Assembly: GCF_006345805.1 (NCBI RefSeq)
Contig: NW_021824283.1
Coordinates: 1 to 19,189, forward strand
DNA: 19,189 nucleotides
From: Octopus sinensis
Taxonomy: Eukaryota
Reading direction: 5' to 3'
Position numbers: made by a program. Position 1 is the stretch's first letter. Each line of letters begins with the position of its first letter. Below are positions 16,712-18,524 of the stretch, in pieces.

Positions 16712-18491
16712 GTATTATATATATGTATATATATGTGTATAGTATATCTATATGTGTAATATATATGTATATATATATGTATATATATAATATGTATATA
16801 TATGTGCTATATATATATATGATTATATATATGTCTATTATATATATATGTATATAATATAGGTGTTATATATATATATGTATATATATGTGTATATATA
16901 ATGTGTATATATATGTATGTATATATGCTATATATAATTTATATATATATTATATATATATATATATATACACACCACACACACACATACACACATTTAC
17001 ACAACATACACCGCACAACATACACACTTGTACAACATGAATATGTATTTGTTTTACAAGATACTTGATGCAACATTCTGTGTTGAAACAGATATTGTTA
17101 CAAGTGGGGATGGCCATATTTTTTCAATTAAACACTTGCACTAGCGTGTGTGTGCTTAATTGGCGAAACATGACCATCCCCAAGTATAACAGTATATATC
17201 ATCATCATCATCATCATCATCATTATTTAGCATATGTTGTTCATGCTGGCATGGGTTGGATGGTAAGTAGCTTGCTTCCCAACCACTTGGTTCTGGGTTC
17301 AGTCCCACTGCATGGCACCTTGGACAAGTGTCCTCTATTATAGCTTTAGGCTGACTAAAGCCTTGTTAGTGGATTTGGTAGACGGAAACTGAAAGAAGCC
17401 CGTCGTAACTGATGGAATGCCACGATAAAATGATGATTTAGTGACTGGACAATTTAGTGTCTATTTTTAGCATATAGGCATGGTCTTCTCTGTGTCATTA
17501 ATCACAGTTGTATCTTATACTATTACAAATTTCTGTGTATCAATTTTACCTAAATAGGTAAATTATATGCTGGCCACTCTCTCTCTCTTTTAATCTTTTA
17601 CTTGTTTCAGTGATTTGACAGTGGCCATGCTGGAGCACCGCCTTTAGTCGAGCAAATCGACCCCAGGACTTATTCTTTGTAAGCCTAGTATTTATTCTAT
17701 CGGTCTCTTTTGCTGAACCGCTAAGTTACAGGGACGTAAACACACCAGCATCGGTTGTCAATCAATGTTGGGGGAACAAACACAGACAAACAAACATATA
17801 CACACACATATATATATATACATATATACGACGGGCTTCTTTCAGTTTCCGTCTACCAAATCCACTCACAAGGCTTTGGTCGGCTCGAGGCTATAGTAGA
17901 AGACACTTGCCCAAGGTGCCACACAGTGGGACTGAATCCGGAACCATGTGGTTGGTTAGCAAGCTGCTTACCACACAGCCACTCCAACGCCACTGATAAA
18001 ATTTTTAATGATTTTATCCTTTAATTATATATATATATATTTATAGAATGGTTGTATACTGTCAATCTAACACGAACGTGACAGTAGGAGTGTACACCAC
18101 CGCTGTTTAGCCCTAGGAAGCATCGACGCCTCCTGATGGCTTTGACACATTTCTCCTGTGTCCTTATATACATTTACGAAGGGGAGACAAATACCCCCAG
18201 CCGCCAGGGCTGCATCTAGGGACATGTGTTTCAGGATGATTGTCCTTCGTCGGCCTAGACTAGCAGACACTGGTCAGCTGATGATATTTGCCTCGACTTC
18301 ATAATGTATATATCTAAATTTCAGTGAAGTCTATTCACTGATTATCATAATCAGAAATACTAAATTTCTAAATCTTTCATAGAGACATGTACGGTGGTGG
18401 GGCGTTCGTATTAGATTGACAGTATACAACCATTCTATTGCCCCACCACCGTACATGTCTCTATGAGAGATTTAGAAATTTAGTATTTCTG

Positions 18492-18524
<33 letters not shown>

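What the first reader, a model, noticed from the sequence alone, without database searches (positions are those of the whole stretch)
18043..18493. Retrozyme-like element: ~361-nt hammerhead monomer with its head-to-tail junction captured in an inverted fragment
Seen: read on the minus strand, 18493->18403 gives ...CGGTGGTGGGGC|AATAGAATGGTTGTATAC..., which is the END of 18043-18403 joined directly to its START. The source template was therefore circular or a tandem multimer of ~362 nt. The monomer is non-coding, carries one type I hammerhead and sits in (TA)n. Known: metazoan non-LTR retrozymes are small (roughly 170-400 nt) hammerhead-bearing repeats that give circular RNAs, and Penelope-like insertions often have an inverted 5' segment. 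Inference: this is a cephalopod retrozyme family making self-cleaved circular RNA, copied by a Penelope-type RT with a template switch. I cannot tell whether it has already been described.
Basis: partly seen in the sequence, partly recalled or inferred. Interest (0 to 1): 0.9.

Follow-up and report, generated by a model that had tools for sequence, protein, structure and literature searches.

The report
Fossil hammerhead retrozyme-like insertion
This is one decayed insertion of a small non-coding repeat that carries a hammerhead-ribozyme-like motif; its layout shows it was copied from a circular or multi-unit RNA, so it is a new example of a known kind of mobile element and not a new kind.

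Summary
18043-18403 (361 nt) is followed directly by an inverted 90-nt arm (18404-18493). Read on the minus strand, that arm joins the end of the unit to its start (54 nt at 98% and 36 nt at 97%). (TA)n lies on both sides.

A second copy, about 29% diverged, at 18857-19169 crosses the same joint in direct orientation. The unit is therefore circularly closed, or tandem, at about 362 nt.

The hammerhead is real but imperfect:
- It has type I architecture on the minus strand, with cleavage expected at 18221/18220.
- The core reads C-C-G-A-C-G-A, which is a U4-to-C change.
- Rfam scores it 14.2 bits against a gathering score of 34.
- My own descriptor finds 1 locus in the window and 0 in 200 shuffles.
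- 3 of the 9 helix I/II pairs covary between the two copies.

The sense RNA is unusually self-paired (circular MFE -127.1 kcal/mol, z -7.3).

Best reading: a dead copy of a non-LTR retrozyme, or Penelope-pLTR-derived repeat. It was inserted into (TA)n by target-primed reverse transcription from both strands, on a circular or at least 1.1-unit RNA.

Four things are untested: circular RNA, self-cleavage, which RT copied it, and the host taxon. No eukaryotic genome or repeat library was available. It is a new member of a known kind, of moderate interest.

The parts
18043..18403 (-). Unit-length arm, 361 nt. The sense strand, which is the hammerhead strand, is the window's minus strand. I number it h1 = 18403 to h361 = 18043. 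Its 3' end abuts the left (TA)n.
   Evidence: Its two ends are neighbours on the circular map, as shown by the inverted arm and by copy 2. Circular MFE is -127.1 kcal/mol against -85.8 +/- 5.65 for 200 dinucleotide shuffles, z -7.3, with 0 shuffles as low. The antisense strand gives -110.8, z -4.2.
18404..18493 (+). Inverted 90-nt arm. Its sense strand is the plus strand, reading h326-h361 and then h1-h54, so it crosses the head-to-tail joint at 18439/18440. Its 3' end abuts the right (TA)n.
   Evidence: I1 54 nt at 98%, I5 36 nt at 97%; blastn. It shows 2 mismatches in 90 nt against the direct arm, both transitions (read).
18214..18260 (-). Hammerhead-like motif with type I layout. Helix I is CUAGG/CCUAG and extends outward to CUGC/GCAG. 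The 5' core is CCGACGA (U4 to C). Helix II is AGGA/UCCU with loop CAAUCA, then GAAA. Helix III is 2 bp with loop ACAU, then GUC. The expected cut lies between 18221 and 18220 (h183/h184).
   Evidence: RF00163, 14.2 bits, gathering score 34, E 0.63 in a 101-nt search; 1 locus in the window, 0 in 200 shuffles; 18 of 20 cells paired against 20-40% for slid controls, and 3 of 9 helix I/II pairs changed on both sides between the two copies; helices I and II form in the MFE fold.
18026..18045 (.). Left (TA)n flank, part of the target microsatellite.
   Evidence: period 2, 10 copies.
18492..18562 (.). Right (TA)n flank, part of the target microsatellite.
   Evidence: period 2, 37 copies.
18857..19169 (-). 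Second, older copy of the same family. It runs from unit position 306 through the joint (361|1) to position 242 in direct orientation. Its hammerhead region (about 19085-19135) is more decayed, with a 5' core of CUAAUGG. It keeps U4 but has changes at positions 5 and 9.
   Evidence: local alignment to a doubled unit scores 109 against 26.3 +/- 4.4 (max 50) in 200 shuffles, with 199 of 332 columns identical and 71% identity over ungapped columns; nhmmer E 2.2e-11; alignment of the hammerhead region; no Rfam hammerhead hit; no significant similarity left of 18857 or in the last 25 nt.

Best explanation
The locus is one old, dead insertion of a non-coding repeat of about 362 nt. It is of the metazoan non-LTR retrozyme kind, meaning a hammerhead-bearing, non-autonomous relative of the pseudo-LTRs of Penelope-like elements (PLEs).

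Shown:
- The insertion consists of two arms lying head to head.
- Both arms have their sense 3' ends against a (TA)n microsatellite.
- One arm is exactly one unit long (18403 to 18043 on the minus strand).
- The other arm is 90 nt (18404 to 18493 on the plus strand) and runs across the unit's head-to-tail joint.
- The arms meet with a 1-nt overlap.
- The sense RNA is unusually self-paired, with hammerhead helices I and II at the tip of an imperfect hairpin of about 150 nt (h92-h240).

Inferred:
- A PLE-type endonuclease nicked both strands of the (TA)n target.
- Each 3'-OH annealed by A/U microhomology to the retrozyme RNA (near ...CUAU and ...CUGAUUAU) and primed cDNA synthesis. This is twin priming.
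- The two cDNA 3' ends then paired and were filled in.
- On the circular map the arms overlap by 54 + 36 nt, and neither arm ends at the ribozyme cut site (h183/184). The template therefore cannot have been a single self-cleaved linear monomer. It was a ligated circle or an uncleaved RNA of at least 1.1 units.
- The exact one-unit length of the long arm fits a circle slightly better. An RT going once round a circle would stop at its own primer. On a linear multimer the chance of ending within a few nt of one unit is about 1%.
- This copy's hammerhead carries U4C, so the copy itself would cleave poorly or not at all. It is most likely not a source element.
For: Arms and joint. (TA)n on both sides. 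Second copy crossing the same joint in direct orientation.

Hammerhead-like motif on the strand required by the 3'-ends-out geometry. It is beyond chance (1 locus against 0 in 200 shuffles). Helices I/II covary between the copies (3 of 9 pairs changed on both sides, 18 of 20 cells paired, slid controls 20-40%). At each of the six fixed positions of the 5' core (3-6, 8, 9; position 7 is free) at least one of the two copies keeps the consensus base, so an ancestor with a consensus 5' core is plausible.

RNA structure: sense circular MFE z -7.3 against antisense z -4.2. Of the 114 pairs in copy 1's fold, 70 have both partners aligned in copy 2. Of those 70, 54 stay paired (44 unchanged, 6 changed on one side, 4 compensatory) and 16 are broken. 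Slid controls keep 24-33.

No ORF longer than 68 codons. GC 43.5%.

Literature:
- Non-LTR retrozymes are 170-400 nt, low in GC and highly self-paired. Mussel repeats are 350-390 bp. PLEs are the proposed mobilisers, and a primed circRNA the proposed template (PMC7229834: abstract and sections 13, 14 and 17).
- PLE insertions often carry an inverted 5'-truncated copy immediately adjacent and show microsatellite bias, with (TA)n for the Naiad clade (PMC8557442, passages).
- Canonical metazoan type I hammerheads have helix I of 6 bp, helix II of 4 bp, and helix III of 1-2 bp with a 2-4-nt loop (PMC4209133, passages).
- 'Solo' monomers are common, and retrozymes are related to pLTRs in Xenopus (bioRxiv 10.64898/2026.07.22.740005: abstract, passages and sections 12 and 16).
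- A natural U4C hammerhead retains enough activity in vivo for viroid infectivity (PMC3088659, Discussion passage).
Against: - Rfam does not call a hammerhead at its gathering score. It also does not at E<=10 on 1290 nt or on the whole window. The only hit is 14.2 bits against 34, E 0.63.
- The core has U4C. Core mutations generally cause drastic loss of activity (PMC3088659, passages). Copy 2 gets no Rfam hit at all.
- There is no head-to-tail array here. TRF finds only short periods in 17700-19189, and the window holds no further copies.
- Only two copies could be compared, so the covariation is thin. The shuffle control is reached in 64 of 500 shuffles.
- No RT or endonuclease was found, and no genome, Dfam or Repbase was available.
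- The two arms have different 3' ends (h361 and h54). PLE inverted copies would be expected to share the element's 3' end.
- An overlap of 54 + 36 nt is large for classical twin priming. I recall that model from the L1 literature and did not read it here.
- No target-site duplication can be read in (TA)n.
Confidence: 0.6

Rival explanations
1. The repeat is a piece of an autonomous Penelope-like element, a solo or rearranged pseudo-LTR left by a heavily 5'-truncated PLE insertion, and not an independent retrozyme family.
For: - Hammerheads sit in PLE pLTRs (PMC4209133; PMC8557442).
- Most PLE insertions are 5'-truncated and often have an adjacent inverted copy and a 30-40-bp 'tail'. The short segment of the inverted arm is 36 nt.
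- Copy 2 runs off the window at 19189 on its sense 5' side, so an ORF beyond the window cannot be excluded.
- The outer end of the inverted arm (unit position 308) and the detectable end of copy 2 (position 306) coincide within 4 nt. That could mark a fixed element 3' end.
Against: - Every adjacency on the 362-nt circular map is seen as contiguous DNA in at least one copy. Positions 1-361 are contiguous in the long arm, and 361|1 is contiguous in the inverted arm and in copy 2. That leaves no place for an ORF in the template.
- Copy 1 is flanked by a SINE-like repeat on the left and by (TA)n plus SINE fragments on the right.
- 0 of the 10 ORFs tested gave RT or GIY-YIG hits.
- A pLTR-only tandem or circle is what the 2026 preprint calls a non-LTR retrozyme, so this rival overlaps the main reading.
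Confidence: 0.15
2. It is a remnant of a tandem satellite array that carried a hammerhead, like the newt or schistosome satellites. Under this reading it was rearranged at the DNA level by inversion, deletion or replication fork switching, with no retrotransposition event at this site.
For: Hammerhead repeats were first described as satellite DNA (PMC7229834, section 17). Satellites and PLE termini are known to match (preprint Discussion). An inverted duplication next to a microsatellite can arise from replication errors, which is my inference.
Against: - The long arm is exactly one unit.
- Both arms end in (TA)n with their sense 3' ends outward, at A/U-rich positions of the unit.
- The inverted arm is not a simple inversion of any stretch of a direct tandem adjoining the long arm.
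- The arms differ by only 2 of 90 nt, whereas the neighbouring copy 2 is about 29% diverged. The two copies are therefore separate events of different age and not parts of one array.
Confidence: 0.08
3. The hammerhead-like motif has no ribozyme history or function. The repeat is some other structured non-autonomous element or foldback, and the motif is incidental.
For: Rfam score is 14.2 bits against 34 with E 0.63, and there is no hit in larger searches. One core position is wrong in copy 1 and at least two in copy 2. Copy 2 gets no Rfam hit.
Against: - 0 of 200 shuffled windows give a motif that passes the same descriptor.
- Helix I/II pairing is kept through 3 double changes between copies.
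- GAAA and GUC are invariant in both copies.
- The helix sizes equal the canonical metazoan type I layout.
- The motif's strand agrees with the strand implied by the insertion geometry.
Confidence: 0.05
4. The inversion is an assembly or read artefact.
For: PLE-type tandem and inverted structures often cause assembly problems (PMC8557442). The site is embedded in low-complexity (TA)n.
Against: A chimeric or fold-back artefact would duplicate adjacent sequence as a perfect palindrome. Here the arm is a permuted 90-nt piece with 2 mismatches to the direct copy, and it contains a joint that the direct copy does not.
Confidence: 0.04

Closest known systems
Metazoan non-LTR retrozymes (Cervera and de la Pena 2020, PMC7229834), in particular the Mytilus galloprovincialis repeats of about 350-390 bp
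   Same: Unit size (361-362 nt), low GC (43.5%), no ORF, one type I hammerhead-like motif per unit, and a highly self-paired predicted RNA. The head-to-tail joint implies a multimeric or circular template (paper sections 13, 14 and 17).
   Different: There is no tandem array here, only one unit plus an inverted 90-nt arm. The hammerhead core has U4C and falls below Rfam's threshold. I could make no sequence comparison with the mussel or any other published retrozyme. Expression and circularity are untested.
Penelope-like element insertions and their hammerhead-bearing pseudo-LTRs (PMC8557442; PMC4209133)
   Same: An inverted copy lies immediately adjacent at the sense 5' side. The insertion is in a microsatellite, so no target duplication can be read. 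A hammerhead is present. One segment is 36 nt, in the size range of the PLE 'tail'.
   Different: No RT/GIY-YIG ORF. The whole 362-nt map is closed on itself. The two arms do not share the same 3' end. In the passages I read, (TA)n bias is reported for Naiads, which lack canonical hammerheads.
Hammerhead satellites of newts, schistosomes and cave crickets (now counted among retrozymes)
   Same: Short non-coding repeats with type I hammerheads that have a short helix III. They are thought to act as dimers in multimeric transcripts (PMC4209133; PMC7229834, section 17).
   Different: Those are long arrays. This is a dispersed single unit with insertion-like ends.
L1 twin-priming inversions
   Same: Two cDNAs primed from the two target strands give a 5' inverted segment joined to a 3' direct segment by microhomology. 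Here the overlap is 1 nt at 18403.
   Different: The presumed RT is a PLE RT and not L1 ORF2p, and there is no poly(A). The arms overlap by 54 + 36 nt on a circular map, whereas L1 inverted and direct segments are adjacent stretches of a linear mRNA.
Natural U4C hammerhead variant of a viroid (cited in PMC3088659, Discussion)
   Same: The same core substitution. It is reported to lower activity considerably in vitro yet to suffice in vivo.
   Different: That variant is in a type III viroid hammerhead with a different context. No activity data exist for this motif.

Membership tests
Metazoan non-LTR retrozyme | Each unit carries a type I hammerhead ribozyme | tested here: inconclusive
   A type I layout is present at 18260-18214, minus strand, and is beyond chance (1 locus against 0 in 200 shuffles). 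However, the core has U4C and the Rfam score is 14.2 against a gathering score of 34. Copy 2 has no Rfam hit.
Metazoan non-LTR retrozyme | Unit of about 150-450 bp (RNAs of 170-400 nt), low GC (<50%), with no LTR, PBS, PPT or ORF | tested here: met
   361-362 nt and GC 43.5%. The longest frame is 68 codons. No direct terminal repeats were found.
Metazoan non-LTR retrozyme | Units occur head to tail (tandem) in the genome | tested here: inconclusive
   There is no array in the window. The head-to-tail joint is seen twice: inverted at 18439/18440 and direct in copy 2. The 2026 preprint also counts solo monomers. The genome-wide arrangement could not be examined.
Metazoan non-LTR retrozyme | RNA predicted to be highly self-paired | tested here: met
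   Circular MFE -127.1 kcal/mol against -85.8 +/- 5.65, z -7.3, with 0 of 200 shuffles as low. 54 of 70 comparable pairs are kept in copy 2, against 24-33 for slid controls.
Metazoan non-LTR retrozyme | Transcribed, self-cleaved and ligated to circular RNA | not testable with these tools
   No RNA data. Neither arm's ends lie at the predicted cut site (h183/184), so the template was uncut or religated there. This is an inference.
Penelope-like element (pLTR of an autonomous copy) | The repeat flanks an ORF with a PLE-type RT and a GIY-YIG endonuclease | tested here: not met
   I picked the 10 non-low-complexity ORFs from the 54 ORFs of at least 80 codons. 0 of these 10 gave RT or GIY-YIG Pfam hits. 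The flanks of copy 1 are a SINE-like repeat and (TA)n. Only 696 nt lie to the right of the locus, and copy 2's sense 5' side is off the window.
Penelope-like element (insertion architecture) | Adjacent inverted truncated copy, partial tandem joint, microsatellite target | tested here: met
   Inverted 90-nt arm abutting the long arm. The joint is present in the arm. (TA)n lies on both sides. The features are as listed in PMC8557442.
Rfam RF00163 Hammerhead_1 | Score at or above the gathering score (34 bits) | tested here: not met
   14.2 bits, E 0.63, seen only in a 101-nt search. No hit.

The most novel reading that the evidence does not exclude
The family is a still-active retrozyme of this (possibly cephalopod) genome that makes abundant circles of about 362 nt. 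This locus would then be a direct genomic footprint of Penelope-type target-primed reverse transcription running exactly once round a circular RNA, with a second priming event from the opposite target strand. That would be physical evidence, from an invertebrate outside the sampled taxa, for the circRNA-template and PLE-mobilisation steps. The retrozyme papers so far only hypothesise those steps.
Probability: 0.2. Interest if true: 0.6.

Novelty: new member of a known kind. Interest (0 to 1): 0.35.

Why it matters
Non-LTR retrozymes are proposed to spread through circular RNAs copied by Penelope-like RTs. [quoted passage not shown]

A unit-length copy joined to an inverted arm that spans the unit's joint, with both 3' ends in a (TA)n target, is the kind of insertion scar that model predicts. 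It also ties a retrozyme-like unit to the PLE insertion signature.

If many such scars exist genome-wide, they could be used to read priming sites, template topology and RT processivity without any experiment.

On its own, this is one decayed locus of a known class. My searches found no paper describing retrozymes in cephalopods, but the host taxon of this window is unverified.

Tried and rejected
- Rfam at gathering score on the whole window: 0 hits.
- Rfam at E<=10 on 17900-19189 and on the whole window: no hammerhead among 20 and 144 sub-threshold rows. Those rows are microsatellite or hairpin look-alikes of miRNA, snoRNA and viral UTR families, all far below gathering score.
- Rfam on copy 2's hammerhead region: 0 hits.
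- Fold of the 81-nt hammerhead region alone: not unusually stable (z -0.79). The strong signal comes from the whole unit.
- Extending copy 2 to the left of 18857, into its last 25 nt, or finding a period of about 365 nt within it: none significant. Observed scores were 28.5, 19.5 and 16, all at or below the shuffle means. I therefore do not claim that copy 2 is longer than one unit, or that its left end is a true insertion end.
- Further copies in the window: none beyond copy 2. The remaining blastn rows are (TA)n matches.
- Pfam on 10 ORFs, which I picked as the non-low-complexity ones among the 54 ORFs of at least 80 codons: only a sub-threshold C2H2 zinc-finger match, and no RT or GIY-YIG. 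The other 44 ORFs, mostly microsatellite or SINE frames, were not scanned.
- Snap-back (self-primed hairpin) model: rejected. It predicts that the strand after the turn repeats the preceding 90 nt as a perfect palindrome, and instead it starts at h1.
- Single self-cleaved linear monomer as template: rejected. No arm end lies at h183/184, and the arms cross both that site and the h361|h1 joint.
- Host taxon: a literature search for a 20-nt string of the window's abundant SINE-like repeat gave 0 papers. 'Cephalopod' stays unverified.
- Not available or closed, so unchecked: any eukaryotic genome, Dfam, Repbase, RNA-seq, the search for homologous proteins, the search of protein representatives, metagenome contigs and viral contigs.
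- I did not use the prokaryotic, phage, plasmid and E. coli collections because they cannot hold this family.
- Supplements are closed. PMC7229834 Supplementary Figures S4-S6 and S9, PMC8557442 supplementary file S1 and the preprint's supplementary tables may bear on whether mollusc or cephalopod families like this one are already listed.
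Full report
**What is in the sequence**

The plus strand 18043-18403 (361 nt) is followed without a gap by 90 nt (18404-18493). These 90 nt are the reverse complement of unit positions 1-36 and then of positions 308-361. The repeat finder gives the two inverted pairs as 36 nt at 97% and 54 nt at 98%, and blastn of the unit against the window gives the same matches. 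The joint carries one extra base relative to the direct copy, so the unit is 361-362 nt. Base 18403 belongs to both arms. (TA)n lies on both sides, at 18026-18045 and 18492-18562. No target duplication can be read.

**A second copy**

nhmmer and a local alignment against a doubled unit show a diverged copy at 18857-19169. It runs from unit position 306 through the joint 361|1 to position 242 in direct orientation. The score is 109 against 26.3 +/- 4.4 (max 50) in 200 shuffles. 199 of 332 columns are identical, and identity is 71% over ungapped columns. Positions 1-361 are contiguous in the long arm, and 361|1 is contiguous both in the inverted arm and in copy 2. The family map therefore closes on itself at about 362 nt. 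That needs a tandem or circular template and leaves no room for an ORF. I found no significant similarity left of 18857 or in the last 25 nt of the window, and no internal period in copy 2. The window holds no further copies.

**The hammerhead**

Rfam finds nothing at gathering score. It also finds no hammerhead at E<=10 in 1290 nt or in the whole window. Only a 101-nt search returns Hammerhead_1 at 18260-18214 on the minus strand, with 14.2 bits against a gathering score of 34 and E 0.63.

Read by eye, the layout is that of a canonical metazoan type I hammerhead:
- helix I of 5 bp, with an outer extension;
- helix II of 4 bp with a 6-nt loop;
- GAAA;
- helix III of 2 bp with a 4-nt loop;
- GUC, with the cut expected between 18221 and 18220.

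This matches the helix sizes given in PMC4209133 (passages). The 5' core, however, has C at position 4 where the consensus has U.

Three results argue that the motif is a real hammerhead relic:
- A descriptor of my own, written after seeing the motif and allowing one core mismatch, finds this one locus in the window and none in 200 dinucleotide shuffles of the window. No exact-core hammerhead exists in the window under the same descriptor.
- In copy 2 the homologous region keeps U4, GAAA and GUC but has changes at core positions 5 and 9, and gets no Rfam hit.
- Across the two copies, 18 of 20 cells of the three helices are paired, against 20-40% for slid controls. 3 of the 9 helix I/II pairs changed on both sides while staying paired.

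With two sequences the shuffle control is weak (64 of 500 shuffles reach the observed values). I conclude that the family descends from a working type I hammerhead and that both copies here are damaged. A natural U4C hammerhead is reported to lose much activity in vitro yet to suffice in vivo for a viroid (PMC3088659, Discussion passage). Weak activity of copy 1 is therefore not excluded.

**RNA structure and strand**

I take the hammerhead strand as sense (h1 = 18403, h361 = 18043).
- The circular unit folds to -127.1 kcal/mol against -85.8 +/- 5.65 for 200 dinucleotide shuffles (z -7.3, none as low).
- The antisense strand reaches -110.8 (z -4.2).
- The fold has an imperfect hairpin of about 150 nt (h92-h240), with hammerhead helices I and II at its tip.
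- A stem joins h5-13 to h301-309.
- Of 114 predicted pairs, 70 have both partners aligned in copy 2. Of those, 54 stay paired (44 unchanged, 6 one-sided, 4 compensatory) and 16 break. Slid controls keep 24-33.
- GC is 43.5%, and the longest frame on a circularised unit is 68 codons.

**Geometry and mechanism**

In sense terms the two arms lie head to head. The long arm runs from h1 to h361 on the minus strand. The short arm runs from h326 through h361|h1 to h54 on the plus strand. Both 3' ends abut (TA)n, at A/U-rich positions of the unit. This is the orientation expected if each nicked target strand primed cDNA synthesis on the RNA and the two cDNA ends were then joined by microhomology. That is twin priming, a model I recall from L1 work and did not read here.

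The geometry also matches what PMC8557442 lists for Penelope-like elements: partial tandems, an adjacent inverted truncated copy, a 30-40-bp tail, and microsatellite targets, with (TA)n for Naiads (passages).

Three further points follow:
- A snap-back cDNA is excluded, because the strand after the turn starts at h1 and does not retrace the arm.
- A single self-cleaved linear monomer is excluded as template. No arm end lies at h183/184, and the arms cross both that site and the h361|h1 joint.
- The template was therefore a circle or an uncut RNA of at least 1.1 units. The long arm being exactly one unit mildly favours a circle.

The arms differ by 2 transitions in 90 nt. This event is therefore much younger than copy 2.

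**Unresolved**

The outer end of the short arm (unit position 308, with a 2-nt ambiguity against (TA)n) and the detectable end of copy 2 (position 306) coincide within 4 nt. Two readings are possible:
- It marks a preferred 3' end of the RNA, which would favour a pLTR-like linear transcript.
- It reflects a variable domain (unit 243-305) in which similarity is simply lost.

Only a genome-wide census can tell.

**Context**

Copy 1 sits between a SINE-like repeat of about 410 nt and (TA)n followed by SINE fragments. The SINE-like repeat spans 17576-17992 and has at least 8 long copies in the window at 80-87% identity. I chose 10 of the 54 ORFs of at least 80 codons for Pfam. None matched RT or GIY-YIG, and one gave a sub-threshold C2H2 match.

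**Comparison with what is known**

The element has the size, composition, non-coding nature, hammerhead type and self-pairing of metazoan non-LTR retrozymes. The mussel repeats are 350-390 bp (PMC7229834: abstract and sections 13, 14 and 17). It also has the insertion architecture of PLEs.

A 2026 preprint argues from Xenopus that retrozymes derive from PLE pLTRs and counts solo monomers. It sampled 31 vertebrates, three insects and one anthozoan, and no mollusc (abstract, passages and sections 12 and 16).

My searches for 'hammerhead ribozyme' + cephalopod, retrozyme + octopus and retrozyme + cephalopod found 4, 3 and 2 papers, including preprint duplicates. Those listed were the PLE paper, a twister-ribozyme paper and a paper on LTR elements. 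For the last two I saw the listing only, and none is about such an element. The PLE paper mentions only hammerhead-less Naiad remnants in cephalopods (passages). I could not verify the host taxon.

**Verdict**

This is a decayed member of a known class with an informative insertion scar. It is not a new kind of element. I rate interest at 0.35. It would rise if a genome-wide census showed many such scars, or if RNA data showed circles.

Noticed in passing
window 17576-17992; also 4569-5001, 8368-8787, 12149-12556, 11082-11465, 8929-9302, 6646-7065, 2954-3340: A SINE-like repeat of about 410 nt with an internal (CA/TA)-rich stretch occurs at least 8 times as long copies in 19 kb, at 80-87% identity to the copy left of the locus, plus several fragments. 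It makes up much of the window and produces many of the listed ORFs.
   Followed up: partly
window 18564-18617 and 18676-18729: Two 5' fragments of the SINE-like repeat lie as an inverted repeat (54 nt, 87%), forming a hairpin between the two retrozyme-like copies. Rfam gives only sub-threshold miRNA-like scores here, for example MIR825 at 29.9 bits against 160.
   Followed up: no
window 18350/18493 and 18857: The outer end of the inverted arm (unit position 308) and the end of detectable similarity of copy 2 (unit position 306) coincide within 4 nt. This is either a preferred RNA 3' end or the edge of a variable domain (unit 243-305, where copy 2 shows no similarity on either side).
   Followed up: partly
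window 1096-1877, 11440-12030, 16600-17070: Long compound (TA)n/(CA)n-type microsatellites give spurious ORFs of 100-250 codons rich in Y, I, C and V. They also give dozens of sub-threshold mir-297 and mir-3149-like Rfam rows.
   Followed up: no
window 12686-12955 (-): An 89-codon frame has a weak C2H2 zinc-finger match (PF00096, E 0.0019, 19 bits against a cut-off of 25.2). It may be a remnant of a transposon or gene fragment.
   Followed up: no
window 18055-18079 and 18343-18356 within the unit: The unit holds several short local hairpins besides the long one. On the sense strand these are h62-69/h75-82 and h318-325/h330-337. The 54-nt and 36-nt inverted arms would make any read-through transcript of the whole locus form a long double-stranded stem, a possible small-RNA source.
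   Followed up: no
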